From Halanaerobacter jeridensis (GTDB lineage Bacteria > Bacillota > Halanaerobiia > Halobacteroidales > Halobacteroidaceae), in NCBI RefSeq assembly GCF_016908315.1, contig NZ_JAFBDQ010000005.1:1-64000 (forward strand): 64,000 nt of DNA. Reading direction: 5' to 3'. The position numbers were made by a program, and so were the translations under genes. The notes under the pieces are model-generated. The model was not told the DNA's origin, did not search any database, and worked only from the letters and a program-made list of their open reading frames with translations. Of the stretch, positions 8,426 to 56,552 are shown in pieces (positions within the stretch are counted from its first letter, which is position 1; every line of letters begins with the position of its first letter).

Positions 8426-8671
8426 TTAAAAAAAGAATAAACCGAAAGAGATAGAGTAGATATCCTTCCCTAAAATGGTTTCTAAATGTGTTTTTAACTT
8501 CACTATACTCAAAAATTTGCCTCTAAACCTGAGCATTTTCGCCGAAAAATTATACCAACGCCCAAAATATAGCCTAGGCATCGCTACTGGACTAACTTCA
8601 AACAAATATACTTCCACATAACTTATATAAGCCTTAACTCTATATTTCTTTTCCTTAATATAAAAAAGCAT
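8426..8671 (-). CDS. small hypothetical ORF in the short cassette between repeat copies 4 and 5
   Basis: 81-aa ORF with a weak RBS. The cassette may instead be non-coding. Confidence 0.2.
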   Translation of the reverse strand: MLFYIKEKKYRVKAYISYVEVYLFEVSPVAMPRLYFGRWYNFSAKMLRFRGKFLSIVKLKTHLETILGKDIYSISFGLFFF

Positions 8672-8753
8672 CTACTCTATCTCTTGACCGGTTATAGAAT
8701 TCTGCAGCATTTTCTATTCTAATACAAACAAACCCATTTGCTAACTATGTCAC

Positions 8754-8882
8754 ATAACGTCCCTGGGCTTCGCGACGTCTCGGGACTGCTCCTATACTTT
8801 TGCTTATCCTCATAAATTTCATAAGTCAGTGCTGCAACCCTGCCCTATCCTCTATACCTAGATGTCGCTAAGCCCATGTTAT
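8754..8882. repeat. attC-like structured repeat, copy 5
   Basis: ATAACGTCCCTGGGCTTCGCGACGTCT...AGATGTCGCTAAGCCCATGTTAT. Nearly identical to copy 3. Confidence 0.65.
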
Positions 8883-8923
8883 CCGACGCCCGGCTTCTAT
8901 AAAAAATATATCCCTCTTTTAAC

Positions 8924-9781
8924 CTAGTAACTTTTTAATATATCTAAATATTCACTTTTTGTTTCATTATCATATAAACCCTTCGCTTCATTTAGAGTTT
9001 CTATAGCCCAGTCTACATATTTTTGATTTACTTTTTTACTATTTTCTATTTTTTCTATAAATCTTTCTATTTTATTTCTCAATTTATTGTTTACTGATTT
9101 TAATTTTTCTTCCAATTGTTCATTCTCTTCTGCTAGTTCTTCATTCTCTTCTGCTAGTTCTTCATTCTCTTGCTCTAATTGTTCTTCAATTTCTTTTAAC
9201 ATTTCTAATCTTTGTTTTAACCGTTGTGTTTCCTTCTTTTCTTGTTGTGTTTCCTTCTTTTCTTGTTGTGTTTCCTTCTTTTCTTGTTGTGTTTCCTTCT
9301 TTTCTTGTTGTAATTTCTTATCAGACTGCTCAACTGCCTCATCTAATGCACTTAACTCTTCATCACTCCATTCAGTACTTTCCTTACTACTCTCACCTTC
9401 ATTTAATATTTCTTTTATTTTGCTTTTAACCCAACTAGGAGCTTCTATAAAATCTTTTCTCAATCTTTTATTCTCTGATTTCAACAACTCTTTATAAGCT
9501 AAATCTAAATTAGAAAGATTATCTTTAGTCAATATATCTATTTCAATTAAATTTTCTGCGAATTCTCCTGGTTTCATAAATTTATCTTCTAATTTGCTTA
9601 TTTCTTCTAATTCGTCATATAATTTAGTTTTAGCCTTATTAGTACTTAATTCAGCTTGTTTTAGTTTCTCTTCTGTTAAACCATAATCCTCATTTAACTT
9701 AGTAGTTACATCATCTGCTAAAACATTCACTGTCAAAACCAATAGCAATACAATCAATAATAAAACACTTAACTTCTTCAT
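8924..9781 (-). CDS. secreted coiled-coil protein with tandem heptad-like repeats
   Basis: Signal peptide MKKLSVLLLIVLLLVLTVNVLA. QQEKKET x4 encoded by 21-bp tandem repeats at 9226-9310, and ENEELAEENEELAEENEQLEE. Ends with TAG. Confidence 0.6.
   Translation of the reverse strand: MKKLSVLLLIVLLLVLTVNVLADDVTTKLNEDYGLTEEKLKQAELSTNKAKTKLYDELEEISKLEDKFMKPGEFAENLIEIDILTKDNLSNLDLAYKELLKSENKRLRKDFIEAPSWVKSKIKEILNEGESSKESTEWSDEELSALDEAVEQSDKKLQQEKKETQQEKKETQQEKKETQQEKKETQRLKQRLEMLKEIEEQLEQENEELAEENEELAEENEQLEEKLKSVNNKLRNKIERFIEKIENSKKVNQKYVDWAIETLNEAKGLYDNETKSEYLDILKSY
9226..9310. repeat. 21-bp tandem repeat (x4) inside the coiled-coil protein gene
   Basis: tgtgtttccttcttttcttgt repeated four times in a row. 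Confidence 0.85.
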
Positions 9782-9864
9782 AATCTGCCTCCCCTAAATT
9801 ATGGTTTTTAATGTTTTTAATATGTATTTCTTTCAATAAAAATAGCAGCTAAGCCGGGTTTCGG

Positions 9865-9990
9865 ATAACGTCCCTAGGGTTCGCGACGTCTAGCTAAACC
9901 CTCCTATAACTTGTCCATCCTCTAAAACTCAATATTCAATTCCTAACCTTCCCTAACCTCTCAACCTAGATGTCGCTAACCCTATGTTAG
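9865..9990. repeat. attC-like structured repeat, copy 6 (different central region)
   Basis: ATAACGTCCCTAGGGTTCGCGACGTCTAG...CTAGATGTCGCTAACCCTATGTTAG. Stem TAGGGTT/AACCCTA. Confidence 0.65.
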
Positions 9991-10014
9991 ACGATGTTTG
10001 CTTGATAAAAATCA

Positions 10015-11046
10015 TTACCTTCTCTCTATTTCTTCAATTATTAATTTTGGGAATTTATATTCAATTACAGCAATAGCTTCTTTTAAAAGCGGATAAGAAA
10101 AATCTCCTTTTGAACTAGTAATCATTGACATCCAATGAGTTGGATAATATCGAACTAACATACCAATCGCATATGAAATAATGTAAATAGTTAATAAAGA
10201 AGAAAAATTTAAATTATCAGCTAAAGGGGCAACAGCAAATATATTATTTTTTCTATCATTTTTTACAAACGGAACTCTATTATAAAACTCTTCATTAGAA
10301 GAATGAATTATTCTAAAAGATATATTTTCTAAATTACCTGCAAAATTATGTTTTTCCTTCTTTCTCGTTTTAATGTCTTTTGGTAAACCAAAGTCATCTC
10401 TAACTAATTCCTTATTAGGTAACCCAATACTAGTTTCTAACACTGCAATATCTGTTTGTTCAGATAAACAAAAAACAATTGCATTATAACATTTAGAATA
10501 ATCATCAAAAGTATTCTCATATATATTTTGTAATTCCGGAATCCTCGCTAATATTTCTTTAATAGTAATTAAATTATTACTATCTTCTTTACCCCCATAT
10601 TGTTTTATTTTAGTTCGATTTGGATATGGAGCTATATATATTGAACTTCTCTCAATATTTTCTGTAACCTCCCATAACTTAGAAAATGTGCCAGAAGTAA
10701 TCTCAACATTCAAATTAGGTACTTCTTCTATTCCATCTGAAAGTTTTTGGGTCCAATTTTTCACTCTTAATCCATGAGATGGTTTAAGGCTAGTTACTCT
10801 TGCAAAAGGATCTAAAAATAAAATTAATCCACGACAAAATGCAACTACTCCGTAATAAAACAATAGAGGAGATACAACATTATCAGCCTGTTTTGCACTG
10901 GAAAAATATTCTCTTCCTTGAGTAATATGAGAAACTATTTCCTCTGCTTTTCCAGCCGAAAGTTCTCTATCATGCTTCTCTTCATAAAATTTTGAAACTA
11001 AATCTTTGCTTTCATACAAAGATATCTTAGACCAAACATTTTTCAT
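10015..11046 (-). CDS. YaaC-like family protein
   Basis: 343 aa. Pattern W..IS.YES.DLV.KF...H...QGREYF..A.....V.PLLFYYG.V and C-terminal PLLKEAI.VIE.KFPKLII match my recollection of B. subtilis YaaC-family proteins. Confidence 0.5.
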   Translation of the reverse strand: MKNVWSKISLYESKDLVSKFYEEKHDRELSAGKAEEIVSHITQGREYFSSAKQADNVVSPLLFYYGVVAFCRGLILFLDPFARVTSLKPSHGLRVKNWTQKLSDGIEEVPNLNVEITSGTFSKLWEVTENIERSSIYIAPYPNRTKIKQYGGKEDSNNLITIKEILARIPELQNIYENTFDDYSKCYNAIVFCLSEQTDIAVLETSIGLPNKELVRDDFGLPKDIKTRKKEKHNFAGNLENISFRIIHSSNEEFYNRVPFVKNDRKNNIFAVAPLADNLNFSSLLTIYIISYAIGMLVRYYPTHWMSMITSSKGDFSYPLLKEAIAVIEYKFPKLIIEEIERR

Positions 11047-11069
11047 TATTTACCTCCCTTTTTCCCTTG

Positions 11070-11528
11070 TCACAAATTTACTTTTTCTAACTGTGTAGGC
11101 CAAGCTCCTTGACCATTTCCTCCTTTAAAATAAACTCTATAATTTTTTCCTATAGAAGAAACAACATGTTTAGTAATATACTTCTTTTCTTCACCATCAA
11201 TTTCAACTTTACTTTTCTTTTTAACTTTGTCTCCAGGCTTTAAATTTAATTCTTCAATTGCTTGCTTATTATTTTCTTTTAATTTATCCTCAATTTTTGC
11301 TGAGGCAACTCTCAACGAATTGTTTTTAAGATCTAAACCCAATTCTTCTCCAAATTCAATTTGTTTTTCAGTAGACTCATTAAATTCCATATTAGGATCA
11401 ATTGCTGGTTCAACTGCATCATAAATCCTTGCACTTGCTACATTACGAGTATCATTAGAAATATCAACTTCTAATTTAATTGCTATATTCTTTTGAAATG
11501 GTGTTGGTTTTTTATGAACATCATTCAC
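11070..11528 (-). CDS. hypothetical protein, co-cassette partner of the YaaC-like gene
   Basis: 152 aa with internal duplication (RNVASARIYDAVE / LRVASAKIEDKLKE). Same cassette as 10015-11046. Confidence 0.45.
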   Translation of the reverse strand: MNDVHKKPTPFQKNIAIKLEVDISNDTRNVASARIYDAVEPAIDPNMEFNESTEKQIEFGEELGLDLKNNSLRVASAKIEDKLKENNKQAIEELNLKPGDKVKKKSKVEIDGEEKKYITKHVVSSIGKNYRVYFKGGNGQGAWPTQLEKVNL

Positions 11529-11577
11529 AAATAAATTTCCTCCTTTAAAAAATATAATATAACAAAAGCAAATGTCG

Positions 11578-11705
11578 TCTAACGTCCCTGGGGTTCGCGA
11601 CGTCTAGCTCAACCCTCTTATAACTTGTCCTTCCTATAAAACTTTCATATGTAATCTCTACCTTCACCCATCCTCCTAGCCTAGATGTCGCTAACCCCAT
11701 GTTAT
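11578..11705. repeat. attC-like structured repeat, copy 7 (same subfamily as copy 6)
   Basis: CTAACGTCCCTGGGGTTCGCGACGTCTAG...CTAGATGTCGCTAACCCCATGTTAT. Stem TGGGGTT/AACCCCA. Confidence 0.65.
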
Positions 11706-11955
11706 GTGATGCTTCTGATCGGTTAATAAAAAATAATCCCCAATAAAATTAAAACCCTCATTAAAATTTAGCATAATAATAAATACTCATATCAAACAAC
11801 TATAATTCGAATTATTTTATACTAATATTATATTCAACCTTACTTTTACTCCTCAATTTGCAACTCAACTCCTGGTATATAAACATTAATCCTTTCTATT
11901 TTAAATCTAATTCTATTTTCTAATTCTTTTTTCACAATATCTTGAATTGTTTGCC

Positions 11956-12760: not shown

Positions 12761-13801
12761 TTAGTTGATTAAATTATCTAACGGACTTTCTATGTTTGCA
12801 ATATCTCTTTTGCTGACATGAGTATATATTTCAGTAGTAGTAGAACTCTTATGTCCTAATAATTTTTGGATGTATCGTAAATCAGTTCCTTGCTCTAATA
12901 AATGTGTTGCAAAAGAATGTCTTAAAGTATGTACAGAAACATCTTTAGTAATATTAGCTTTTCTACAGGCTTTTTTGAATATTCTTTGTACTGATCTTGT
13001 AGTTAAGTGTTCTCCTTCTTTGCCTCCAGGAAACAACCTCTTTTCGGGTTGATATAATTGATGATACATTTTTATCTGTTTCAGACAAGATTCTGATAAG
13101 ATCGTATAGCGATCTTTTCTCCCCTTCCCTTGATTAATTTTAATTAGCATTCTATCACTATTAATATCATCCATTTTTAGTTTAACAACTTCACTAACCC
13201 TTAATCCAGCAGAATAAACTACATACAAAATTGTTTTATGTTTGGGGTTATCTAGACTATCTAAAATCTTCGCTACTTCTTTTTTACTTAATACTTCCGG
13301 TAACTTTTTTTCTTTTTGTGGTCGTGATAAAACAACTGAAATATCTTTATTATCCAATACTTCCCGGGCCAAGAACTTAATAGCACTAATCCCCTGGTTA
13401 ACAAATGAATGTGATAAATCTTGGTCTAATAAATCCAACAAATAATCCTTAATCTCAGCATCAGTCACTCGTGATAACTTCTTATTAATAAATCGTGCAA
13501 ACTGCCTAATATGACTCATATAAACTTTTTCCGTCTTTTCACTATAACCTTCTAAATTTAACTGATTTTTTAGTTCATTAATTACTAGTTCATTTTCTAA
13601 AGCACTGGAAATTATAATTCTTTCATTAACAAATTTCTCTTTTAACTGTTCTAAAATATCATAATCATAAGGTACTAACCATGCTCTAGCTTTAGGGGCC
13701 CATTCCCGCTTATTAATTTCTTTAATTTTTTTAATTTTTCTTTCCGAATAATCAAATTTAACAGCTAGTTGTCCTTCTAACTTTTCAATTCTTAATGTCA
13801 T
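12761..13801 (-). CDS. tyrosine-type site-specific recombinase (XerD-like core, about 100-aa N-terminal extension); putative cassette-array integrase
   Basis: 346 aa. Box II HTLRHSFATHLLEQGTDLRYIQKLLGHKSSTTTEIYTHV, R at LRVSE, catalytic Y in EIYTHV, C-terminal SPLDNL. Only about 58 aa between KDR and HTLRHS, so no IntI-type additional domain is evident. Confidence 0.85.
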   Translation of the reverse strand: MTLRIEKLEGQLAVKFDYSERKIKKIKEINKREWAPKARAWLVPYDYDILEQLKEKFVNERIIISSALENELVINELKNQLNLEGYSEKTEKVYMSHIRQFARFINKKLSRVTDAEIKDYLLDLLDQDLSHSFVNQGISAIKFLAREVLDNKDISVVLSRPQKEKKLPEVLSKKEVAKILDSLDNPKHKTILYVVYSAGLRVSEVVKLKMDDINSDRMLIKINQGKGRKDRYTILSESCLKQIKMYHQLYQPEKRLFPGGKEGEHLTTRSVQRIFKKACRKANITKDVSVHTLRHSFATHLLEQGTDLRYIQKLLGHKSSTTTEIYTHVSKRDIANIESPLDNLIN

Positions 13802-25959: not shown

Positions 25960-26400
25960 GTTTTTGTTTTTTCTGTTTTACTCTTCACTGATTATTATTT
26001 TTCTTGTTACTTTTTACTTGTTACTCTTTTCTTGTCACTGCTTTTTCTTGTTACTGCTTTACTCTTGCACTTGACTTTTATTTTGTGTCTCTTTACTGAT
26101 CACTGTTTTACTGTTTTTATGCTTTATTCTTGAATTTGACTTTTATCTTATCTCTTCACTGATTACTTGTTACTCATCACTGTTTTACTGTTGCACTTGA
26201 CTTTTATTTTGTGTCTCTTTACTGATCACTCATTACTCCTCACTTTTTTTTATCTCTTCACTGATTACTTATTATTGTTTTTCTATTTCACTGTCTTTTG
26301 TGTTTTTTACTGATTATTTGTTACTGATTACTCATCACTATTATTCTGCTTTACTCTTGTATTTGACTTTTATCTCTTCACTAGTCACTCATTACTAATT
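25960..26400. repeat. degenerate tandem/dispersed AT-rich repeat region
   Basis: Motifs TTGACTTTTAT, CTCTTCACTGATTACT, CTCATTACT, TTACTGATCACT. Units of about 45 nt recur at 26060-26110 and 26195-26240; shorter ones at 26140-26175 and 26370-26395. Relatives at 42000-42185 and 29455-29545. Confidence 0.7.
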
Positions 26401-27192
26401 ACTATTATTACCTTCGTATTTATTCAAACTAGCTGCCATTTTTCTCAAATTGACAATACTTAAATCTAATTCACTATCAGCATGTTGGGAAATTGTTTTT
26501 AACTTTGCTAATTTTATTTTCATATTATCTAAGTCTGTAATTGCTTGTTCATTAATTGAAAGATATTTATTAATTGCCTGCAATTCAGTTAAAATCATCT
26601 CTTTTTTCTCTTTTAATGAGTTAAGTTCATCTCCCATCTCTGCAGTTAACTCATCTTTAGTTTCTAGTAACTCAATTCTTGAATTAATATAATTAAGGTT
26701 AATATCCTCTATCGATTGATAAATATCTTTAACTTGGGCCAAATTATCTAAAATATTATAGTATACTTCTTCTGTGACCCTCATGAATTTTTGATAAGTA
26801 ATTCCGTTTTTATCTAATTTGATATCTAAAATATTCTTAAACTTTTCAAACTTTTCAATCACTCTTAATAATTGATTTAAAGCCAAACGAGCACTTTCCT
26901 GATAATGATTAGTATTTGTCAAATCACTAAATTGAGTCTTTAATTCAGCAATAAAGGAAATTATCTCCTGCTTATAAGAAACATTACCTGTTCGCATTTT
27001 ACTCTCATCTATATCTACTTTTAATTTTTCTTCTTTTTTATATCCATTGCTTAACGACAAATTTAGCACCTCCACTAATAAGGCACCTGCTAAAATCCCC
27101 CATCCAAACTGCTGCAGAGAGTCAACAAACAAAATGATTTCTACGCTCACTACAATTGGAACCAACTTTTGAATAAGCAATTTTTTAATCAA
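26395..27192 (-). CDS. hypothetical membrane plus coiled-coil protein
   Basis: 265 aa, two N-terminal TM helices then coiled coil. Function unknown. Confidence 0.4.
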   Translation of the reverse strand: MIKKLLIQKLVPIVVSVEIILFVDSLQQFGWGILAGALLVEVLNLSLSNGYKKEEKLKVDIDESKMRTGNVSYKQEIISFIAELKTQFSDLTNTNHYQESARLALNQLLRVIEKFEKFKNILDIKLDKNGITYQKFMRVTEEVYYNILDNLAQVKDIYQSIEDINLNYINSRIELLETKDELTAEMGDELNSLKEKKEMILTELQAINKYLSINEQAITDLDNMKIKLAKLKTISQHADSELDLSIVNLRKMAASLNKYEGNNSN

Positions 27193-29434: not shown

Positions 29435-29566
29435 TAAAAATGTTCGTCTACCCATTTTTATCTTTTTTTAGTTTTTTCTTTTTAAATTTTGAATTTACTC
29501 TTTACTTTTTATTTTTTAATTGTCACTCTTCACTAATTACAACTGGGCACTACCAGTTTCTCATTC

Positions 29567-29741
29567 TTTAAGAATACTTTGCCCAGGAGCAACTATTTTT
29601 ATTTGACCGCCAGTAGAACACATTAATTTAGAACCTTCCAATAAAGCAGACTGTTGACCAACTTTCACGTTTTCTTTCACCTTAGTCCATGGTGAGGGAA
29701 GACTAGGCGTACAAGAGCTTTCAGTAATTTTGCAATGACCT
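29567..29741 (-). pseudogene. C-terminal portion of the DUF4280 (PAAR-like) gene, displaced by the miniature IS element
   Basis: rc translation CKITESSCTPSLPSPWTKVKENVKVGQQSALLEGSKLMCSTGGQIKIVAPGQSILKE* matches my recollection of the DUF4280 C-terminal half. Confidence 0.5.
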
Positions 29742-30100
29742 ACTTGAAGGGCAAGCCCGTTCAGGTTTCTTCATTCATTGAAACGAGCCTAATCTAAACC
29801 TACCGAAATGGTAAGACAAATCAGGTCTTACAGTTTCTAGACCAGCCAAAAGACTGGTTGAGGCAACTTACAATGCCTCCAGAAGCTTGAATTCCCGTCA
29901 GCCCGACGGTATGTATTATATTTTAACCCTTTTCTAATTTTATAGAGCAGCTTGGTTGTCGCTTACTCTTTATCGTAGGGTTTCATTTTTTTGACTTATA
30001 TTTAGTATATCTTATTTTAGAAATAATATTCAATTATTTCTAAAATGTTGTCATTTAACCCAAAGGCAAGCCCATTAGGGTTTTCTGACAACTAATGCAA
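29742..30100 (-). mobile_element. miniature, transposase-less IS200/IS605-family derivative (LE and RE only)
   Basis: 29742-29925 is about 95% identical to the RE/omega-RNA region at 44821-45004. LE hairpin cccaaaggcaagcccattaggg at 30058-30085 is homologous to the LE at 46822-46865. Only about 130 bp of AT-rich DNA lies between them. Confidence 0.6.
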
Positions 30101-30884
30101 TAACATTTGCAATTAAATTACCACAGACTTTAGAATTATGTCCTGATACTACTTGTAATTGACTGGGGGTACTTCCAGCGCTACATTTCAGCCTTGCACC
30201 AGAACAGACATACAACTGACCTCCTCCACTAGAACTTCCTTGACTATTACCGCCGCTATTATTTTTGCTCGTCTGACTATAACTTGCTCTATTATTACTG
30301 TTCCTATTAGTTGCTGCACCTTGTTTTCCTTTCTCTTTCTCACTACTGCTACCAACACTAGCAGCAACTTGACCTTGAGCTTTACTTTGTTCTTTGTTTT
30401 GCTGCTTTTTATTTTCTTCTTTTTCTTCCGGAAAGACTATCTTATCGCCTCGGTAAATCCATAAAAAATTATTTTTTATTCGTTTTTCTTCTTTTAAGTA
30501 TTGATTTTCTTTCACTCCTAGTACTGCACCTTTAGTATCTTCTTCTTCCGCACTTTGCTCAAATATCTTTCCTTGCTCTAAATAATAAGGAGCAGGTTTA
30601 TCTAGCCACAAACCATAATCCCCTTCTTTAAAATCATCAATTAAAGCCCAATTTAATTCATTATTCTGATCTAAATATAACATCACTAAGTTACCATCTT
30701 CTTTACGGTATTTATTATCATATTGATCTTTATAATCTATATCTTCTTCCTCTGTTTCTTTAATCCCCGGGCCAATCAAATTGCCATTAATCTTAATTTT
30801 AGTTTTTCTTTTTTCTAAATCAATATTAATTTCACGCTCATCTTTAGCTAGTTTAGTCTTTTGATATTCATTCTTTCCTGTCAT
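30075..30884 (-). pseudogene. DUF4280/PAAR-like domain protein, interrupted by the miniature IS element
   Basis: C-terminal LYVCSGARLKCSAGSTPSQLQVVSGHNSKVCGNLIAN equals the DUF4280 N-terminal half. Reading frame runs into the element LE and stops. N-terminal region has the EGDYGLWLDKP module shared with the adjacent lipase protein. Confidence 0.55.
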
Positions 30885-30906: not shown

Positions 30907-33900
30907 TTAAGCATAACAAATTAGTTTATCCCTTTCTTTACGATTGAATTTAGAATTAGCTCCAGCTATTTCATCAATCCTATTAAGCGGTAATTTAATT
31001 CCATAATCACCGTTCCGAAACTTCTTAATCATTATCTTCCACTGCTGATTCGAACCATATTTAATTACTAAATCATACTTGTCGTCATAACAATTTTGGC
31101 TATACTCACAATATAAAGTGGCCGTTTTATATTTCTTGACTTTAACTTCATAAAAAGTCTTTATTCCATAAGTATTACCATCTGAATTAGCTATTCTTTT
31201 CAGCTTAGGTAACTGCTTAAAATTAAGTTCAGCTAAATTATGCAGTTGTCCAAATAATTTTAGTAGGATCTTGCCGCTGCCGTCTGATTCCATAACGACG
31301 CCGTTAAAACTACTTGTTCCTTCATCTTCTCGTTTGTAAGTTGGAGTTGATTCTCCGTTATAAAATATATATTGGTCTGGTGACTGACCTCGGTTATCTT
31401 GAAACTTGAATTTAGCATGGTTCAGACCGTAGTCTCCATTTTCAAAACCATTAATTAATAAGGCATTGTTATAGTCACCAAAATTAATTACTAAATTGCC
31501 CAGCTCTTTTAGATAAGTAAAAGTGATCTTATCACCATTTAAACAGACATTTTTTTGCGTATCCTTTGCAACTTCAGTCTTACTTAATAAACTAGCTGCA
31601 TCCCTATAGTCCTGCTTTCCAAACTTCAGCAGTATCTTTCCACTGCCGTTACTTTCCTCTTCTACAGTATTATTATGCTGCCAAAAACCGCTGCTGCCTG
31701 CAGTAAATTTATATTCACAGTTACTTCTATCCAGTTGGACTACCAAATTCCGACTGCCGTAGAGGACTGTGGCATAATTAACTACTTCATCTTCAAGATC
31801 GTATCTTCTCCTACTACCGTATAACACATCTTCCGGCACGATAAATTCTAAACCAAAGTCACCATATTGATAGTTATCTATTATGACTTTACCGCCGTAC
31901 TTAGAAAAGTACTGTTTGTTATTGCCAAAACTTGCCCCATAACTATAATTAACTTCTACAGTAGACTCTTCAGGAATATAAGCATAATAAAAGCCGAACT
32001 TATCCGTGAATTCATACTTTAATTTATTCTCTATAAGTTCTACTTCATTTTTAAATTCTAAGTCTTGACCTAATAACTTCTGCTCGCCATTCGGTAGAGC
32101 AATTTTCAATCCATCACCACTAATTTTAGAGTTTTCCTGTTGGCGGTGGGCATAAATCTCATAATACTGCAGTTCTCTGATTCCATCATCAACTATCTCC
32201 GCCTCTAAACTACCTTCTACTCTATGTACACGCGGGAGATAGATGCCATAATCTCCATTCACAAACTCATCTATTCTTGTCCTATTTAACTTTTCTGTCG
32301 TAAATTCAGTCACACCATCTTTAGTTGCGCTTGGCCCGTAATAAGCAATCAGTACGTTTTCTTCTGGTTGACTAAAATTAGGCTGTAAGTGATATTCTAC
32401 TTTAAAATCTTGCTCTGCAAATACTTCTTCATATATTTCAGTGCCATAATACTTATCTTCATCTTCTTTTAGATTATTTAAATACTCCTCTTGAATCTCA
32501 ATTTTCTTTCCTAACTGTACTTCATTAATTATGATATCAGTCTGGGGATCACTGTCTTGATTATAAGTATCTATTTGGCCCATGCCCATCACAAACTCAA
32601 ACGGATCTCTTTGAGACTTACTATTCTCTTCTAGTTTACTGCTGCCAAATAAATTATGCCTATTTGGTGGAGCCGTAATGTTCATTTTTATCTGTTGGGA
32701 AGAATTAGTAATTGGAGTGCTGTGGTAGATTGTTTCTTCCTCCTGCGTTACCCCTGCTGTCCCTAAGAATAACTGCTTGATGTTTCCAGATGATGACCAG
32801 CGCCATAATTTTTTCCTGTCTTGTTCATCTATTTTCTTTAGTTGCGCTAAAATAGCAGTATCTAAGCTATACTCACTATTATTTTCATCAATTACTATTG
32901 TATATTTACATTCATTATAAATAGTTATTAATATTTTTAGCAAAGAAGACTCCTCTATTGTTATCCATTCTTCATTTAAATCCTGGTTAATATTATTTTT
33001 AGTAACTTCATCTAACTTCCGACCTTGCTGTTTAACACTATTAAATAAAGTTGCCTTAGATAATTTAAATAAATTATCTTGAAAAGTTTCTTCAGTCTTC
33101 TTTCTACTAGCTGATTTATATTTTAAATATAACTCTTCTAATTCTTTTAAATCATTACCATCATCAGTTATTTCTAAAATTATATATTTTATTATTGAAC
33201 GCAAATAATCATAACTCAAACTATCTGTTAACTCTCCGATTTCTGCTGTCCCGCCTTTATAATTTTCTGGTTCTCCTATGTTACCTTTCTTTTCTAATAA
33301 TATATAAGGGTAAAATATATTAACACCATGCTGCTTAGCTAATTCTAATTCTTCTCCTCCTATTTCACCTGCCCCATCTTTAAGAGAACCTTCTTCTATT
33401 AAATCCGAATATTTTATTTCGCTATTATCTTTAAATTCTTTATCTACTAAATAGCAGTTACCTACATGCTTAAAAATTGTTCCCGTAATATCATAAGAAT
33501 TAGCATAATTTTGGAGATTTGACTTATCCAATTTTTTATATTTTTCAGCAAAACGTAATTTTCTATTTGCAAGTTCAAATGCTATCTCTTCTAATTCCTC
33601 AGCCTCTTCAATCGGCATAATTAAAGATAAACCAGATTCTTTTATCAAACTATCCTCTATTAATGCTTGTTTATAATCTTTCTGCAGTGCTAATAACTGC
33701 TCAGTAAATTGATCAGTATCACTAATATCTTCAAATTGTTGATAACCCTCACTAAGCAACTCATCTTTTAAGTTGTCAATCTTACCTTGGAGTAAACTTT
33801 TTTTATTTAAATCATTATTCAACTCCATCTGATAAGTAAATTGATTATAATCTCCTGCTTCCATTCTCTCTTCAATTGCTTTGATTTCTTGCTTGAACTT

Positions 33901-35025
33901 TTTTACTTTATCTGCTGCTTCATCAATCATATCTAATCTATGTTTTACTAATTCTCTAATAAATTTAATCCTATCTATTTCCGGAATTCCTGCCTCATTC
34001 TTTTTTACAAATTTAGAATTTATACTAGTTCCTTGAATAATATCTGACTTTTGAATTTCCTGATAGACCCTCTTATCAAGTTCATCTCTTAAGTCTCTTT
34101 CCCCTATTAAAACTTTATTAACTAAAAAGAGCAAAGCATCCTTATAGCCTAAAAACTCATTACCATAGAAATTCTTAAAATGTTTAATTCCAATTCCATT
34201 CCACGTCTTACAATAAACATGATGACCATTCCCTTGAGCCATAACTGCTGCATACTGAGCTAATCCTCCAGCTAAGGAATGTCCAGTGAAAGTGAAAGAG
34301 TAATTCTTATATTCCGAATGATCTTTTAAAATAAGTTTATAAAAATTTTCTGCCTTATCAAATTGCTCACTAGGAATACCAGCAGCAATCAAAGAATTAG
34401 TCATTGTATGATCTCTAGTTTCATTTGTCCCCCGATAAGCAATGATTATTTCTTTATCACCTTCATTTACAAAAGCTGCTGCATAAAATCCATCGCCTGC
34501 ACCTAAATCTCCTTCCAAGAACTTATCTATTTTACTATAAACTAAATCTTCTAATTGATTGACCAACGCCCAATTAGTCAAATTAAAAGAAATTGCCGCT
34601 TTATTTAATTTTGCTAGCACAGGTAACAGAGGTACTTGTTTTATAACTAATGATAATACATCCGGGTCAGTTCCTGCATCGATCATAGGACCTGCTTGAC
34701 CCATTACAAAATTCATAATTACAGATTTTATTTTATAAAATAAATTATTTGGCTCTTCTTTTCTTTCTAAATTATTTTCTCCATCTTTCATTAAAAATTT
34801 CCAATTACTTAATTGATCATAGTTAGTATAATTAACTTCCAATCTATTCTTTCTATATTTGGGATCATCTTTAAATCTATTTTCCGCTGAATTAAAAAAT
34901 ATTTCTTCTATAGTAGAATTTTCATCTCCCCCATCCGCTTTTTTACCATTATAAAAATCTTCATAAACCATATCACTAAAAATCAAACTTAAATAATCAT
35001 TTGCTTTTGGCTTTTTTCCACTCAT
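30907..35025 (-). CDS. giant class-3 lipase (alpha/beta hydrolase) domain protein with C-terminal NGDYG repeat modules; candidate toxin/effector
   Basis: 1372 aa. Lipase_3 nucleophile elbow FTGHSLAGGLAQY preceded by AYRGTNET. Repeated modules NGDYGIYLP, NGDYGIKLP, GDYGLNHAKF and GDFGLEFIV. No signal peptide. Confidence 0.6.
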   Translation of the reverse strand: MSGKKPKANDYLSLIFSDMVYEDFYNGKKADGGDENSTIEEIFFNSAENRFKDDPKYRKNRLEVNYTNYDQLSNWKFLMKDGENNLERKEEPNNLFYKIKSVIMNFVMGQAGPMIDAGTDPDVLSLVIKQVPLLPVLAKLNKAAISFNLTNWALVNQLEDLVYSKIDKFLEGDLGAGDGFYAAAFVNEGDKEIIIAYRGTNETRDHTMTNSLIAAGIPSEQFDKAENFYKLILKDHSEYKNYSFTFTGHSLAGGLAQYAAVMAQGNGHHVYCKTWNGIGIKHFKNFYGNEFLGYKDALLFLVNKVLIGERDLRDELDKRVYQEIQKSDIIQGTSINSKFVKKNEAGIPEIDRIKFIRELVKHRLDMIDEAADKVKKFKQEIKAIEERMEAGDYNQFTYQMELNNDLNKKSLLQGKIDNLKDELLSEGYQQFEDISDTDQFTEQLLALQKDYKQALIEDSLIKESGLSLIMPIEEAEELEEIAFELANRKLRFAEKYKKLDKSNLQNYANSYDITGTIFKHVGNCYLVDKEFKDNSEIKYSDLIEEGSLKDGAGEIGGEELELAKQHGVNIFYPYILLEKKGNIGEPENYKGGTAEIGELTDSLSYDYLRSIIKYIILEITDDGNDLKELEELYLKYKSASRKKTEETFQDNLFKLSKATLFNSVKQQGRKLDEVTKNNINQDLNEEWITIEESSLLKILITIYNECKYTIVIDENNSEYSLDTAILAQLKKIDEQDRKKLWRWSSSGNIKQLFLGTAGVTQEEETIYHSTPITNSSQQIKMNITAPPNRHNLFGSSKLEENSKSQRDPFEFVMGMGQIDTYNQDSDPQTDIIINEVQLGKKIEIQEEYLNNLKEDEDKYYGTEIYEEVFAEQDFKVEYHLQPNFSQPEENVLIAYYGPSATKDGVTEFTTEKLNRTRIDEFVNGDYGIYLPRVHRVEGSLEAEIVDDGIRELQYYEIYAHRQQENSKISGDGLKIALPNGEQKLLGQDLEFKNEVELIENKLKYEFTDKFGFYYAYIPEESTVEVNYSYGASFGNNKQYFSKYGGKVIIDNYQYGDFGLEFIVPEDVLYGSRRRYDLEDEVVNYATVLYGSRNLVVQLDRSNCEYKFTAGSSGFWQHNNTVEEESNGSGKILLKFGKQDYRDAASLLSKTEVAKDTQKNVCLNGDKITFTYLKELGNLVINFGDYNNALLINGFENGDYGLNHAKFKFQDNRGQSPDQYIFYNGESTPTYKREDEGTSSFNGVVMESDGSGKILLKLFGQLHNLAELNFKQLPKLKRIANSDGNTYGIKTFYEVKVKKYKTATLYCEYSQNCYDDKYDLVIKYGSNQQWKIMIKKFRNGDYGIKLPLNRIDEIAGANSKFNRKERDKLICYA

Positions 35026-43263: not shown

Positions 43264-43493
43264 CTTTCTTCCCCCGCATCTTGGGCCAAATCTCTAAAAG
43301 CAGCTAAAGTTTCCTGGGCTGCAGATTGATTTAACTTTTGAATCGCACATCCCGAATGAAGCAGCACATAGTCTCCTACCTCTACTTCCGAAATCAAAGT
43401 AATATTGACTGTCTTTCTAACTCCTTTTACTGCTCCTACAGCCTCTGTATCATTAACAATTTCTATAACTTTAACCGGCACAGCAATACACAT
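43260..43493 (-). CDS. hypC: hydrogenase maturation factor HypC
   Basis: 77 aa starting with MC (MCIAVPVKV...), the HypC/HupF hallmark. Confidence 0.8.
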   Translation of the reverse strand: MCIAVPVKVIEIVNDTEAVGAVKGVRKTVNITLISEVEVGDYVLLHSGCAIQKLNQSAAQETLAAFRDLAQDAGEER

Positions 43494-44233
43494 TACAAAT
43501 GACCCCTCTCTTGATAATTAGCTACTGCTAATTGTCCTACTGCTAAGCCCTCATCAGTACAAGGAATCTTATGAGGTAGATGAACTTTAAATCCCCCAGC
43601 TGTTAACTTGCGATAAACCTCAATCAATAAGATCTGATTCTGCCATACCCCTCCACTTAATACTACATGATCTAATTTGAATTGTAGTCGCAATATCTCA
43701 CATAACCTAACACTAAAATTAATCACTGTATTATGAAATTTACGAGCAATCATACCTGCATCTACTCCCGCTCTTAAATCAGCAGCAATTTCTTTTATCA
43801 AAGTGGTAATCAAAATCTGATACTGACCTGCTCTCTTGCTGATTTGATAATTATAACTATCATTATTATTAACAGTTTGAGCTGCAGTTTCTAACTTAAG
43901 AGCAGCCTGCCCTTGATAACTCCTTTTTAAACACAATCCTAATAGAGCTGCTACTGCCGCAAATAATCGTCCAAGACTAGAAGTAAGAGGACAATTAATA
44001 TCTTGTTCTAACATTTGCTCTACTGCAGCTAATTTATCAGGCTTTATTTGAGACATATTTTGAGTAAAGATTTCAGTTACTTCTATTCCCGCCTGGTGGA
44101 GATAACTAACTGCCATCCGCCATGGTTCCTTAACTGCTTGATCTCCGCCGGGTTGAGCTACATACTGCAAATGACCTACACGCATAAAATCACTATAATC
44201 ACAAATAAAAAACTCCCCCCCACAAGTGACCAT
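43493..44233 (-). pseudogene. hypF: hypF fragment (Kae1-like C-terminal domain)
   Basis: Overlaps the preceding hypF fragment in another frame. The frameshift lies in an aaaaaactcccccc homopolymer region at about 44205-44225. Confidence 0.7.
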
Positions 44234-44818
44234 CAGTTCCTAAACCTACTCCATCAAAAGCAATTCCAATCACCGGTTGTTGGAGTTGATGTTCAACCAT
44301 AGAACTGACTAAATGGGCATGATGATGCTGCACTGCTATCTTCTCACCTGGTAATTGCTGAGCATAATGAGTAGAATAATAACCCTCATGTAAATCATGA
44401 ACAATTAACTCCGGTTCTATATCATACAACTGCTCTAAATGTTCAATATTATCTTGATAACGTTGGTAAGTCTCTAAGTTACTTAGACTGCCTGTGTACT
44501 GACTTACAAAAGCAAATTCTCCTTTGCTGAGACAGAATGTATTCTTTAAATCTCCTCCACAGGCCAAAGTAGCTACCTCTGAGCTTACTTTAATCACTTG
44601 TGGTGCAAAACCACGGCCGTGTCTAATTACTCGTTCATGACCAAGGGCTACATTGGTTACTGCATCATCTACCGGCACCTCTATCTTGCGATTATGTAAT
44701 AAACAGTAGTCAGCTACTGCAGTTAATTCTTCTCCTGCTCTTTGATTAGTATATTCTAACGGTAGTCCACTTAAATTTCCACTTGTCGCTACTAATACAT
44801 CAAGTCCATGGGCCAATG
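44199..44818 (-). pseudogene. hypF: hypF fragment (YrdC-end/Kae1-like middle portion)
   Basis: ...LAHGLDVLVATSGNLSGLPLEY... The annotated N-terminus MKKPERACPSGRS is read-through from the IS right end, not hypF. Confidence 0.7.
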
Positions 44819-44820
44819 AC

Positions 44821-45050
44821 CTACCTGAAGGGCAAGCCCGTTCAGGTTTCTTCATTCATTGAAACGAGCCTAATCTGAACCTACCGTAAATGGCAAGACA
44901 AATCAGGTCTTACAGTTTCTAGACCAGCCAAAAGACTGGTTGAGGCAACTTACAACGCCTCCAGAAGCTTGATTTCCCGTCAGCCCGACGGTAAATATGT
45001 TTTTTATGAGCTTCACGAAAAGTCCGTTAGGACTTGTAGGATGTGGACTA
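44821..45050 (-). ncRNA. putative TnpB-associated omega-RNA / right-end element
   Basis: Highly conserved approximately 185-bp structured sequence immediately 3' of tnpB. It is duplicated (about 95% identity) in the tnp-less copy at 29742-29925. Confidence 0.45.
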
Positions 45051-46181
45051 ACCTGCTAACAGTTTCTTTCCTTCTTGGAGGATATTCAAACTTGCGTTAA
45101 GGTCACGATCATGTTCAGCACCACATTCACAGGTCCAGTTTCTTACAGATAGATCTTTAACATTTGGATTTTTAGTTCCACATTCGTTGCAAGTTTGAGA
45201 ACTTGCGAAAAATCTATCTACCTTTTGAATGATACAATTATACCAGTCACCTTTATATTCTAGCATATCTGTAAATTTGCCCCAAGATACATCTGTTATA
45301 TGTTTGCCAAGTTTGCTGTTTTTGACCATACCTTCAATGTTTAAGTTTTCAAGACAGATAAATTGATTTTCTTTAACTAGTCTTGTACTTAATTTATGGA
45401 GGAAATCAGTTCGTACATTTTTGATCTTTTCATGTACTTTAGCAATCTTATGTTTGAGCTTTTGCCAGTTATTAGAACCTTCTTTTTTACGAGCTAATTG
45501 TTTTTGTAATCTGGCTAGTTTATTTTCATATTTAGAAAGATGTTTAGGATTTTCTATCTTTTCGCCCTCTGATGTAATAGCAAAATCTTTGAGACCTAGA
45601 TCAATTCCTATCTGACCATCATTGGAATAATTAACTTCTACAACTTTAATTTTTTCAACATTGATAGAGATATAATACTTTCCTGTTCTTGATTTAGAGA
45701 CTGTAACATTATTTAATTTACCTCCAATATTTTCTTCACTATAATTAGAAAATTTGATCCAAGAAACTTTAGGAAGTTTGATTTTATTTCCTTTGATTTC
45801 TATACTTTCAGTTCCGCTAGATCGTTTAAAATATTCGGTACGATATGATAGTCGAGAACCTTTCTTGCTTTTGAAATTAGGGAATCCTTTATCACCGTTA
45901 AAGAAATCTTGGAAAGCTTTATCTAGATCTCTAATTGATTGCTGCAAAGCTATAGAATCAGCATTTTTAAGCCATGAAGTTTCTTCCTGATTTTTAAGTT
46001 TAGGAAGATCTTTAATATATTGAGTTTTATTTGCATAGCCATTTTGTTTAGCTTTGTCTAAAAAATAATTATATACCCATCGGCTAGACCCTATAGTTTG
46101 GTTGATTATATCTTTTTGCTTTTGATTTGGATATATCCGACATTTATATCCCCGTTCGATAGGAACAAATCGCTTAATCAT
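45048..46181 (-). CDS. tnpB: IS605-family TnpB (RuvC-like nuclease with zinc finger)
   Basis: 377 aa. C-terminal CNECGTKNPNVKDLSVRNWTCECGAEHDRDLNASLNI zinc-ribbon. RuvC-like motifs. Confidence 0.9.
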   Translation of the reverse strand: MIKRFVPIERGYKCRIYPNQKQKDIINQTIGSSRWVYNYFLDKAKQNGYANKTQYIKDLPKLKNQEETSWLKNADSIALQQSIRDLDKAFQDFFNGDKGFPNFKSKKGSRLSYRTEYFKRSSGTESIEIKGNKIKLPKVSWIKFSNYSEENIGGKLNNVTVSKSRTGKYYISINVEKIKVVEVNYSNDGQIGIDLGLKDFAITSEGEKIENPKHLSKYENKLARLQKQLARKKEGSNNWQKLKHKIAKVHEKIKNVRTDFLHKLSTRLVKENQFICLENLNIEGMVKNSKLGKHITDVSWGKFTDMLEYKGDWYNCIIQKVDRFFASSQTCNECGTKNPNVKDLSVRNWTCECGAEHDRDLNASLNILQEGKKLLAG

Positions 46182-46197
46182 AATTTGACCTCATTCC

Positions 46198-46602
46198 CTA
46201 TTTAAGGTTTTGATTTTTTATATAATTTCTAATAGTTTCAATATTAGCATTACCTACTGTATCTACAAAATATCCTTTGCTCCACAAAGAACCACAACGA
46301 TCATAAAAAATCTTTAATTTAGGATGTTCCTTGAAAAGTTTAATTGCTGATATGCTTTTAATAGTTCTTACTATATCAGTAGGAGCAACTGTGGGTCTAG
46401 CAGATACAAAAATATGAATGTGATCTGGCATTACTTCTAACTCTAATATTTTATAGTTATATCTGTTACAAATATTAATGATAATATCTTTTAAAGATAA
46501 AGCTATATCGCCATTTAAAACTTCAAATCTGAATTTAGGACACCAAACTAAATGATATTTGATGGAATATTTACAATGGTTAGTAGAATTATATTCATTC
46601 AT
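46198..46602 (-). CDS. tnpA: IS200-family TnpA (Y1 HuH transposase)
   Basis: 134 aa. HuH motif MPDHIHIFVSA. Catalytic Tyr region SKGYFV. Confidence 0.85.
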   Translation of the reverse strand: MNEYNSTNHCKYSIKYHLVWCPKFRFEVLNGDIALSLKDIIINICNRYNYKILELEVMPDHIHIFVSARPTVAPTDIVRTIKSISAIKLFKEHPKLKIFYDRCGSLWSKGYFVDTVGNANIETIRNYIKNQNLK

Positions 46603-46801
46603 TTAAATCATACTTTTCTTTGATACTTCTACGCATTAAATCTAAATAGCTTAGTGTAGTCTCTTCTTCAACTGAATAAATACTAGCTAAATTTTCTAAT
46701 TCCCGATCAAAAGGAATTGCAATATTAATTTTAGTATTATCTTTACTTGAAGACATTTTATTTGCTCCTTTAACACATATTATCCCACAATAGATTATAT
46801 A

Positions 46802-47434
46802 TTATGTGAATAGTTGTGTTCTTGACCCAAGGGCAAGCCCGTTGGGTTTTTTACACAAAAACAATAACTGTGGCCCACAATCAGGGCAGGCATTTGGCTG
46901 AGCATGAAAGCGCCTGCTAGTCGGATCTTGATATTCACTAAGGCAATCTTCACACATACTAAAATCAGACATAGTAGTTGACTCCCTGTCATATGGTATA
47001 CTCTCAATAATTGAAAAGCGTGGGCCGCAGTTCGTGCAATTAATAAACGGATATCTATATCTTCTATCATCTCCATCTAATAATTCCTCTTGGCATTGTG
47101 AACATAAAGCTGCATCTGGAGTCACAAAGGTTAACTGTTCATTATCATCTGTACTATCTTTGATTTTAAAATGTTGATAATTCGTAGATTGCAGCTGGTT
47201 GATTATTATCTCTTCTATTTGGGCCAAGGTTGGCGGATTAGATTTAATTTGATTAATCAAATTAGTTACTCCCCGCAGCGAGCCCTGCACATCAATTTCT
47301 ACCCCCTGCTGAGTATTATTAACTTCTCCTTGTACATCATAATGCTGAGCTAAATTATAAACAAAGGGTCTAAAGCCAACTCCTTGTACTATGCCCTTTA
47401 CTATCACAAACTTACGAATTACTTGCTCATTCAT
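46802..47434 (-). pseudogene. hypF: hypF N-terminal fragment (acylphosphatase plus two zinc fingers)
   Basis: KFVIVKGIVQGVGFRPFVYNLA (acylphosphatase), CSQC...CTNCGP and CEDC...CPDCGP zinc fingers. Runs into the IS left end. About 130 aa of the YrdC-like domain is missing between this and the next fragment. Confidence 0.75.
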
Positions 47435-56376: not shown

Positions 56377-56552
56377 CTCTAACTAGTAGTTTATATTATT
56401 ATATGCCTGATAAAATATTTTGGTTATTGCATTGATAGGCAGAAACTGCTAATAGGCTCCCCACTGAGCTGAATAACAACAGTTTAGAAACAATTTGATA
56501 TTATTTCTAAACTGTGATGAAAGTAAAAACTACTTATTTATCATTTTTAAAT

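What the first reader, a model, noticed from the sequence alone, without database searches (positions are those of the whole stretch)
29742..30100. Transposase-less miniature IS200/IS605 derivative (LE plus omega-RNA-like RE only) splits the DUF4280 domain
29742-29925 is about 95% identical to the RE/omega-RNA region of the full IS at 44821-45004. 30058-30100 matches its LE hairpin region. Between them is only about 130 bp of AT-rich DNA, with no tnpA or tnpB. Removing the element and joining GCAAAT|TGCAAAATT restores a continuous DUF4280 frame (...GNLIAN|CKITESSCTPSLPSPW...). This is a PATE-like non-autonomous element that still carries the omega-RNA scaffold, so it could be trans-mobilised or act as an RNA guide source for TnpB.
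Basis: seen in the sequence. Interest (0 to 1): 0.6.

Follow-up and report, generated by a model that had tools for sequence, protein, structure and literature searches.

The report
Gene-less mini IS605 inside DUF4280 gene
A 365-bp gene-less copy of an IS605-type transposon, carrying both transposon ends and the guide-RNA scaffold but no genes, interrupts a DUF4280 gene in Halanaerobacter jeridensis; this kind of element is already known, and cutting it out would not restore the gene because 40 bases of host DNA are also missing.

Summary
The repeat is real. Window 29735-29911 is 96.6% identical (172/178) to the right end of a complete IS605 element (tnpA + tnpB, 44816-46863). The left-end match is weaker, at 73-80%. 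From four independent right flanks and three left flanks, the mini element spans 29735-30099 on the minus strand. It lies 3' of a GTTAT pentamer and ends in GGTCAT. It contains a left-end hairpin, a family-specific palindrome with a promoter-like site, about 90 nt of unique spacer, and the whole conserved structured right-end RNA. It has no ORF. Distant TnpB relatives show compensatory changes in that RNA's helices, so calling it an omega-RNA scaffold is justified.

The "restored frame" claim is only apparent. All six intact homologues aligned, two of them read at DNA level, carry 15 more codons. Precise excision would leave a 40-nt frameshifting deletion. The missing DNA lies exactly between two (A/G)TTAT sites. 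The full IS in hypF shows a comparable loss of about 150 codons.

Both hairpins of the mini element carry weakening changes, so current mobility is doubtful. PATE-like elements that encode omega-RNAs are already described. This is a new member of a known kind, of low-to-moderate interest.

The parts
30100..30104 (-). Host target pentamer GTTAT immediately 5' of the mini LE. It is the candidate TnpA target and TnpB TAM.
   Evidence: GTTAT precedes all three LEs in the window (30104..30100, 46868..46864, 56423..56427). It also lies within the first 7 bases of three repeat-collapsed Logan contigs of the same IS. Native DUF4280 alleles have GG(T/C)TAT|TG at the junction with the right flank.
29735..30099 (-). 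The mini element itself: 365 nt, LE to RE, with no ORF longer than 24 aa inside it.
   Evidence: Boundaries come from alignments of four right flanks (A3) and three or four left flanks (A2).
30057..30082 (-). LE subterminal hairpin AACCCTAATGGGCTTGCCTTTGGGTT. It is a degenerate version of the family hairpin ACCCAACGGGCTTGCCCTTGGGT.
   Evidence: DNA folds. The full IS and L016 form ((((((.(((....))))))))). The mini LE has an extra T bulge and a G.T pair, and its folding energy is weaker (-6.5 vs -11.1 kcal/mol for ~55-nt segments).
30014..30046 (-). LE-internal palindrome TTTTAGAAATAATTGAATATTATTTCTAAAA. Homologous palindromes occur in L016-L018 and in the third LE-like locus. It is deleted from the window's own full IS.
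   Evidence: Alignment A2; self-hit 30046-30014.
30004..30033 (-). Sigma-70-like promoter match TTGAAT-18-TATACT pointing towards the RE.
   Evidence: 9 of 12 consensus positions. This is a consensus match only, in AT-rich DNA. A role in transcribing the RE RNA is inferred.
29912..30003 (-). Unique spacer of about 90 nt with no similarity to the full IS or to any fetched locus.
   Evidence: BLASTN and nhmmer found nothing for this stretch.
29735..29911 (-). RE, the omega-RNA-like scaffold. It holds stem 1 (29909..29895), the long-range helix CUUC:GAAG, three internal stems, the terminal hairpin (29765..29743) and the terminus GGTCAT (29740..29735).
   Evidence: 96.6% identical to 44816-44993. 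Consensus structure. Covariation in distant relatives.
29719..29734 (-). Right flank TGCAAAATTACTGAAA. This is the 16 nt that would serve as the guide if the RE transcript is used by TnpB.
   Evidence: Position is read from the sequence. The guide role is inferred from the ISDra2 and G. stearothermophilus model (PMC10097598, PMC10055086).
30105..30884 (-). 5' part of the interrupted DUF4280 gene. As it stands, the ORF 30075..30884 reads 9 codons into the target pentamer and the LE.
29561..29734 (-). 3' part of the DUF4280 gene (CKITESSCTPSLPSPW...ILKE*).
   Evidence: (DUF4280 profile 56-109).
44816..46863 (-). Full-length IS605-type element of 2048 nt. It has an LE, a 53-aa ORF (46756..46595), tnpA (46602..46198), tnpB (46181..45048) and a 227-nt RE. 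It sits in hypF.
   Evidence: Pfam Y1_Tnp, OrfB_IS605 and TNB domains. NCBIfam IS200_TnpB scores 462.5 against a cutoff of 425, and transpos_IS200 scores 156 against 55. Match to ISDra2 TnpB 8h1j at E=2.6e-85.
56428..56528 (+). Solo LE-like remnant (GTTAT|TGCATTGATAGG..., palindrome present, hairpin degenerate, no RE) between two LysM-protein genes, in the opposite orientation.
   Evidence: (I1).

Best explanation
Window 29735-30099 (minus strand) is a 365-bp non-autonomous member of an ISDra2-like IS605 family, of the PATE type.

Shown:
- It lies 3' of a GTTAT pentamer, with no target duplication.
- It starts with a family LE: 17 nt, then the subterminal hairpin, then a family palindrome.
- It ends with the family RE: hairpin, then 8 nt, then GGTCAT.
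- Its last 177 nt are homologous to the structured RNA that follows tnpB in the full element and in distant relatives.
- It interrupts a DUF4280 gene exactly at a native GGTTAT|TG site.

Inferred:
- It arrived by TnpA-catalysed single-strand peel-and-paste insertion.
- An LE promoter transcribes the RE RNA, which runs into the flank (guide TGCAAAATTACTGAAA).
- TnpB from the full copy 15 kb away could load this RNA. It would then cut any excised empty site (GTTAT + guide), favouring retention of the element.

The element now looks decayed. Both TnpA hairpins are weakened, and 40 nt of host DNA between two (A/G)TTAT sites is missing. The gene is therefore permanently broken, and mobility is uncertain. 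The 20-27% divergence of the LE against 3.4% for the RE means it is not a fresh internal deletion of the neighbouring IS. It descends from a different lineage or is a recombinant.
For: - Repeat significance: E=2e-81; identity 96.6%.
- RE terminus: set by four different right flanks. LE start and GTTAT: set.
- Native insertion site: intact alleles read TTTTGGTTAT|TGTAAGATT and TTCGGCTAT|TGTAAAATC.
- Hairpin asymmetry: 16-17 nt from the LE cut to the hairpin, and 8 nt from the hairpin to the RE cut.
- RNA structure: z = -4.5 for the full RE and -4.0 for the mini.
- Consensus structure: 53 pairs.
- Covariation, stem 1: variants are CCGUC:GACGG, CUGUU:AACAG, GGGUA:UACCC and CCGUA:UACGG.
- Covariation, long-range helix: variants are CUUC:GAAG, CCUG:CAGG and CUCG:CGAG.
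- Covariation, relatives: 7 of 14 consensus pairs are compensatory in 15 relatives.
- Mini vs full RE: of six differences, three are unpaired, two preserve pairing and one breaks a pair.
- Trans factors: tnpA and tnpB pass the curated cutoffs. The RuvC motifs GIDLG, LENLN and HDRDLNA are intact.
- Orientation: the top strand of both the mini and the full IS is the G-rich strand (plus strand G 7968 vs C 13153). That is the expected lagging-strand-template orientation.
- Other copies: an independent Logan contig identical to the window stops at 30075. Its last 30-mer is exactly GTTAT plus 25 nt of the LE, which implies at least one more copy of this LE start in that read set.
- Prior literature: PATE-like elements encoding omega-RNAs are described in PMC10055086, and one in a Halanaerobium in PMC7290912.
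Against: - Only one mini copy is visible. The source genome is absent from the searchable genome collection, so copy number and independent insertions could not be examined.
- The RE hairpin has a C.A mismatch and no longer folds canonically as DNA (z = -0.27). The LE hairpin is degenerate.
- The 55 nt between the tnpB stop codon and stem 1 of the full IS, including the hairpin AAGUCCUAACGGACUU, is absent from the mini. Completeness of the functional scaffold rests on analogy with ISDra2, where only the last 116 nt are needed (PMC10097598).
- No Rfam family matches the RE.
- The promoter is only a consensus match.
- There are no expression data.
Confidence: 0.85

Rival explanations
1. In-situ wreck. 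A full-length IS of a related lineage inserted here, then lost its genes through an internal deletion. The 365-bp remnant has never moved as a mini element and does nothing.
For: Signs of decay are plain: weakened hairpins and a 40-nt loss of flanking DNA. Only one mini copy is seen in 64 kb. The window also holds a solo LE remnant, which shows that such fragments accumulate here.
Against: The ~90-nt spacer matches no part of the known full IS or its 90-97% relatives. The promoter-like and palindrome region and every RNA helix are retained, and two of the three paired-position differences from the full RE preserve pairing. The Logan contig break indicates that the same LE start occurs elsewhere, although that could be the full-length parent.
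Confidence: 0.3
2. Recombinant. Two elements sat 40 nt apart at the two (A/G)TTAT sites of the gene, one of an older lineage upstream and one related to the full IS downstream. Homologous recombination between them produced one chimeric element and deleted the 40 nt.
For: This explains two things at once: the mosaic (LE 20-27% diverged, RE 3.4% diverged) and the loss of exactly the DNA between the two sites. The H. hydrogeniformans study also inferred recombination between IS605 copies (PMC7290912).
Against: It needs two insertions 40 nt apart. The same pattern at hypF (about 150 codons lost) would need a second such pair, and the full IS shows no mosaicism. The crossover would have to lie at the very 5' edge of the RE homology.
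Confidence: 0.15
3. Chance similarity or an assembly artefact that joins unrelated repeats.
For: None beyond the fact that short-read assemblies break in this region.
Against: E=2e-81. The Logan contig from run SRR18704483 is identical to the window up to 30075. The same family ends are present in metagenomes.
Confidence: 0.01

Closest known systems
PATE-like elements of Geobacillus stearothermophilus IS605 families (Meers et al., PMC10055086)
   Same: They have an LE and RE but no protein genes. They 'often encode omega-RNAs' that TnpB from other copies would have to use in trans, and they are predicted to be mobilised in trans by a shared TnpA. Their target motif equals the TAM.
   Different: This is a different IS lineage (ISDra2-like TnpB, GTTAT target). 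The element here has weakened hairpins and a flank deletion. No expression or excision data exist for it.
The 271-nt PATE-like element of Halanaerobium hydrogeniformans (PMC7290912)
   Same: The host belongs to the same order (Halanaerobiales). It consists of an LE hairpin plus a complete RE with no intact genes, occurs as a single copy, and shares its genome with many decaying IS605 copies.
   Different: That element keeps 58 nt of tnpB. This one keeps none and instead has a family palindrome and a unique spacer. In that IS, tnpA and tnpB are divergent; here they are co-linear.
PATEs of Haloquadratum walsbyi (Dyall-Smith et al., PMC3119063)
   Same: Short, gene-less derivatives of IS200/IS605-type elements with palindromic ends.
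   Different: They are archaeal and multi-copy. No similarity to them was tested here.
ISDra2 (Deinococcus radiodurans) TnpB and its omega-RNA (PMC10097598)
   Same: The TnpB of the full IS matches ISDra2 TnpB at E=2.6e-85. The structured RNA lies at the RE and ends at the transposon boundary. In ISDra2 only the last 116 nt are needed, which matches the ~105-116 nt REs of this clade's short relatives.
   Different: The target/TAM is GTTAT here (inferred) and TTGAT in ISDra2. The RE is expanded to 227 nt by an extra 5' hairpin and an internal insertion of about 70 nt. No pseudoknot could be assigned.

Membership tests
IS200/IS605 family, non-autonomous (PATE-like) derivative | No terminal inverted repeats; imperfect subterminal hairpins at both ends, related to each other | tested here: met
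   The LE and RE hairpins share the core GGGCTTGCC(C/T). Both are weakened relative to the family consensus.
IS200/IS605 family, non-autonomous (PATE-like) derivative | Insertion 3' of a fixed tetra- or pentanucleotide, without target-site duplication | tested here: met
   GTTAT lies 5' of all three LEs and within the first 7 bases of the collapsed Logan contigs. The native gene has GGTTAT|TG at this point. The RE ends in GTCAT and no duplication is present.
IS200/IS605 family, non-autonomous (PATE-like) derivative | Asymmetric ends: the LE cleavage site is well upstream of its hairpin and the RE cleavage site is a few nt downstream of its hairpin | tested here: met
   16-17 nt at the LE and 8 nt at the RE. 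The IS608 values (19 and 10 nt) are recalled from memory.
IS200/IS605 family, non-autonomous (PATE-like) derivative | No transposase or accessory gene inside | tested here: met
   The longest internal ORF is 24 aa.
IS200/IS605 family, non-autonomous (PATE-like) derivative | Several copies at different loci, or demonstrated mobilisation in trans | tested here: inconclusive
   There is one copy in the window. The genome is not in the genome collection. A Logan contig break implies another copy of the LE start.
IS200/IS605 family, non-autonomous (PATE-like) derivative | Active (top) strand on the lagging-strand template | tested here: met
   The top strand is the minus strand, which is G-rich (plus-strand GC skew -0.245). 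The replication direction is inferred from skew only.
TnpB omega-RNA (reRNA) | Lies at the 3' side of tnpB, ends at the RE boundary, and takes its guide from the flank | tested here: met
   This holds by position in the full IS and in 20 relatives. The mini segment is homologous to it at 96.6%.
TnpB omega-RNA (reRNA) | Conserved secondary structure supported by covariation | tested here: met
   Searches show compensatory changes in stem 1 and in the long-range helix. The mini keeps all helices except one C.A pair.
TnpB omega-RNA (reRNA) | Transcribed, processed and bound by TnpB; directs TAM-dependent cleavage | not testable with these tools
   No RNA-seq or biochemistry is available.
TnpB omega-RNA (reRNA) | Match to a curated RNA family | tested here: not met
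   No Rfam 15 family reaches threshold at either RE. Rfam may simply hold no model for this clade.
Classical MITE (TIR-type) | Terminal inverted repeats and a target-site duplication | tested here: not met
   The ends are TGCATTAG... and ...GGTCAT, and there is no duplication.

The most novel reading that the evidence does not exclude
IS605 ends promote precise deletions from one target site to the next. For both elements in this window, the host DNA is missing exactly between two (N)TTAT sites.

- In DUF4280 the loss is 40 nt, from native AAT(A/G)TTAT|GG to GGTTAT|TG. Both sites are visible in intact alleles.
- In hypF the loss is about 150 codons. The left junction is CAG TTA T| at the conserved CGPxL motif. 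The right junction is |TG GCC, directly after the conserved Leu-Leu of the PLHxLL motif.

One possible cause is TnpA joining an element end to a nearby second target site. Another is TnpB-triggered repair after a local hop. Either would be an undescribed way in which these elements erode genomes.
Probability: 0.25. Interest if true: 0.5.

Novelty: new member of a known kind. Interest (0 to 1): 0.3.

Why it matters
This adds one more example of a guide-RNA-bearing, gene-less IS605 derivative, in an order (Halanaerobiales) where IS605 decay has already been documented. Such elements bear on how TnpA, TnpB and omega-RNA work as separable modules, but the concept is already published.

The less expected part concerns the flanks. 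Both IS copies here sit at junctions where host DNA between two target-like pentamers has been lost. If that is general, IS605-family elements inactivate genes irreversibly even though their transposition chemistry is 'scarless'.

Tried and rejected
1. A genome-contig scan with the hairpin pattern AAGGGCAAGCCCGTTSRGKTT returned 13 chance hits and no Halanaerobacter.
2. Exact-protein look-ups for TnpA and TnpB returned only short, repeat-collapsed Logan contigs. These helped with boundaries but not with flanks.
3. No ORF of 30 aa or more lies inside the mini, so it cannot be traced by protein look-up.
4. Rfam gave no omega-RNA family at gathering or E-value thresholds.
5. The HypF homologue search found nothing above ~55% identity, so the native hypF DNA at the IS junctions could not be read. 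Only protein-level inference was possible.
6. I tested whether the third LE-like locus carries the missing 40 nt of DUF4280 as a translocated flank. Only TTTTGGTTAT is shared, so I rejected this.
7. I looked for a pseudoknot equivalent to ISDra2 -5..-3 : -103..-105 by eye and found no convincing partner.
8. The 53-aa ORF of the full IS has no hit in Pfam, NCBIfam or PDB sequences, even at E<=10. Its ribbon-helix-helix look is an impression only.
9. A literature search for IS605 adjacent deletions found nothing relevant. This is not proof of novelty.

Full report
SOURCE AND CONTEXT. The truncated DUF4280 ORF (30075..30884, minus strand) is identical to a protein of Halanaerobacter jeridensis. 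Most genes, and both IS copies discussed here, are on the minus strand, which is the G-rich strand (plus strand G 7968, C 13153).

OBSERVATION. BLASTN of the window against itself confirms the repeat: 29733-29911 matches 44814-44993 at 96.7% over 180 nt, E=2e-81. Within the element proper the figure is 172/178 = 96.6%. The left-end match is real but much weaker, at 80% over 50 nt and 73% over the first 50 nt. No ORF longer than 24 aa lies inside the element.

THE FULL ELEMENT. Window 44816-46863 (minus strand, 2048 nt) holds the following parts:
- a 53-aa ORF;
- tnpA (Y1_Tnp; NCBIfam transpos_IS200, 156 bits against a cutoff of 55);
- tnpB (NCBIfam IS200_TnpB, 462.5 bits against a cutoff of 425; match to ISDra2 TnpB 8h1j at E=2.6e-85; RuvC motifs present);
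- a 227-nt RE.
It sits inside hypF.

BOUNDARIES. Metagenomic relatives L021 and L045 have 92% identical REs and different flanks. With them, four right flanks diverge immediately after GGTCAT: TGGCCC, TGCAAA, AGAATT and AATTTA. On the left, all three LEs in the window are preceded by GTTAT and begin with TG. Three repeat-collapsed Logan contigs of the same IS reach GTTAT within their first 3 bases. The mini element is therefore 29735-30099, and the target pentamer is 30100-30104. The left cleavage sequence (GTTAT|) and the right one (GTCAT|) resemble each other. The LE cut lies 16-17 nt upstream of its hairpin, and the RE cut lies 8 nt downstream of its hairpin. This is the IS200/IS605 layout.

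ANATOMY OF THE MINI ELEMENT, 5' TO 3' ON THE MINUS STRAND.
- TG plus 15 nt.
- The hairpin (30082..30057).
- A 33-nt palindrome (30046..30014).
- A TTGAAT-18-TATACT promoter-like match (30033..30004).
- About 90 nt found nowhere else.
- The 177-nt RE.
The palindrome is a genuine family feature. It is present in the LE of the 97%-identical metagenomic copies L016-L018 and in a solo LE remnant at 56428-56528, but it has been deleted (40 nt) from the window's own full IS. The mini LE is therefore authentic but belongs to a diverged lineage, whereas its RE is nearly identical to that of the full IS. The element is a mosaic, not a recent deletion derivative of its neighbour.

IS THE RE AN OMEGA-RNA SCAFFOLD? 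Both REs fold far better than shuffled controls (z = -4.5 and -4.0). RNAalifold on four close copies gives stem 1, a long-range helix CUUC:GAAG enclosing three stems, the terminal hairpin and a short 3' tail.

Twenty TnpB relatives at 40-57% protein identity have a shorter RNA of 105-122 nt in the same position, starting a few nt after the stop codon and sharing the core. Stem 1 and the long-range helix covary across them:
- stem 1: CCGUC:GACGG, CUGUU:AACAG, GGGUA:UACCC and CCGUA:UACGG;
- long-range helix: CUUC:GAAG, CCUG:CAGG and CUCG:CGAG.
Seven of 14 consensus pairs are compensatory in 15 sequences.

In ISDra2 only the last 116 nt before the guide are needed (PMC10097598). The window's TnpB ends where the ISDra2 conserved core ends. 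By homology, then, the functional scaffold should lie downstream of the stop codon.

The mini keeps everything from stem 1 onward. It lacks only the lineage-specific 55 nt between the stop codon and stem 1. Of its six differences from the full RE, three are unpaired, two preserve pairing (G.U to A-U and G-C to G.U) and one creates a C.A mismatch in the terminal hairpin. 'Carries the omega-RNA scaffold' is therefore supported by homology and structure. Expression and TnpB binding remain untested.

DOES REMOVAL RESTORE DUF4280? It does not.
- All six intact homologues aligned read ...GNLIAN-IMDYQAMTNVQTFGY-CKIT..., two of them at ~80% identity.
- The window lacks those 15 residues.
- At DNA level the relatives read GCAAAT-ATTATGGATTA...CTTT(T/C)GG(T/C)TAT|TGTAA(A/G)AT.
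- The window reads GCAAAT-GTTAT|[element]|TGCAAAATT.
The right junction is therefore native to the GGTTAT|TG site. Precise excision would leave a 40-nt frameshifting deletion.

The left junction coincides with a second target-like site, AAT(A/G)TTAT|GG. TTAT occurs at only ~1% of positions, so this coincidence is unlikely to be chance.

The full IS shows the same pattern. HypF residues equivalent to 211-365 of homologue P0019 are missing. The left junction CAG TTA T| falls at the conserved CGPxL motif. The right junction |TG GCC follows the conserved Leu-Leu of the PLHxLL motif. Native hypF DNA from a close relative was not available.

Possible causes include recombination between two copies at neighbouring target sites, an aberrant TnpA reaction that joins an element end to a nearby second target site, or repair after a local hop. 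I cannot discriminate between them.

COPY NUMBER AND MOBILITY. The window contains two REs and three LEs. The source genome is not in the searchable genome collection. Indirect evidence for further copies comes from a Logan contig from run SRR18704483. It is identical to the window and ends at 30075, and its last 30-mer is exactly GTTAT plus the first 25 nt of the mini LE. That is what a k=31 graph (k recalled from memory) produces when the same sequence occurs elsewhere with a different upstream base.

Against current mobility, the mini RE hairpin no longer forms as the minimum-energy DNA fold (z = -0.27), and the LE hairpin has an extra bulge and a G.T pair.

COMPARISON WITH KNOWN SYSTEMS. 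Meers et al. describe PATE-like elements in G. stearothermophilus. [quoted passage not shown] A 271-nt PATE-like element (LE hairpin plus full RE) was reported in Halanaerobium hydrogeniformans, together with extensive IS605 decay and inferred recombination (PMC7290912). The present element fits this class.

VERDICT. This is a real, correctly recognised non-autonomous IS605 derivative with an omega-RNA-homologous RE. It is a new member of a known kind. The 'restores the frame' argument is wrong in detail, and the element looks partly decayed. The reproducible site-to-site loss of flanking DNA is the only aspect that goes beyond the published picture, and it remains a hypothesis.

Noticed in passing
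window 1499-11714 (seven sites: 1499-1641, 2503-2685, 4314-4458, 8126-8291, 8747-8891, 9858-9999, 11575-11714) and 12761-13801: This looks like an integron-like cassette array. Seven ~145-nt imperfect palindromes each lie just downstream of a minus-strand gene or gene pair. On the minus strand they read ATAAC-ATGGGCTT-A-GCGAC...GTCGC-G-AAGCCCA-GGGAC-GTTAT. One copy has an exact RYYYAAC motif and one an exact GTTRRRY motif, which I recall from memory as the attC consensus motifs. The ends pair over ~23 bp, and 8 pairs show compensatory changes. One cassette is a complete Gabija system (GajA 525 bits, GajB 594 bits). A tyrosine recombinase lies ~1 kb beyond the last site, in the same orientation. 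It scores above the NF040815 'tyrosine recombinase/integron integrase' cutoff but below the TIGR02249 cutoff, and its match skips profile positions 179-249, where I recall the IntI-specific segment lies. From memory, classical integrons are reported to be absent from Firmicutes, so this may deserve its own study.
   Followed up: partly
window 43493-47434 (hypF): hypF is a pseudogene for two reasons. First, the full IS sits at a junction where about 150 codons (most of the YrdC-like domain) are missing. Second, there is a frameshift at a C-run near 44225-44235, between ORFs 44199..44855 and 43493..44233.
   Followed up: partly
window 46595-46756 (-); L016 150-317; L021 134-301: A conserved 53-55-aa ORF lies upstream of tnpA in this IS lineage and overlaps its start. 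It has no hit in Pfam, NCBIfam or PDB sequences. By eye it could be a ribbon-helix-helix protein. The LE palindrome, which the mini retains, could be its operator. This is pure speculation.
   Followed up: partly
window 56428-56528 (+): A solo LE-like remnant sits between two LysM-repeat protein paralogues. It has GTTAT|TG and the palindrome, a degenerate hairpin and no RE, and its orientation is opposite to the other two copies.
   Followed up: yes
L021 1-110: The 90%-identical metagenomic copy L021 lacks the LE hairpin altogether. GTTAT is followed after 7 nt by IS-internal sequence. This is another example of decay at an end of this IS family.
   Followed up: no
window 53702-53770 (-): A fluoride riboswitch (RF01734, 48.7 bits, E=1.9e-10).
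   Followed up: no
window 25998-26406 and 9202-9327: Two repeat regions of unknown meaning: an AT-rich intergenic stretch with several short direct-repeat families (TTACTGATTACT-like units; D6, D9 and D15), and 21-nt tandem repeats at 9202-9327 inside or next to an ORF.
   Followed up: no
window 30907-35025 (-): The gene upstream of DUF4280 encodes a 1372-aa protein with a weak Lipase_3 / phospholipase-like match. An intact relative's contig has the same protein family three genes upstream of DUF4280, so it could be a PAAR-like tip and toxin locus that the insertion has disabled.
   Followed up: no
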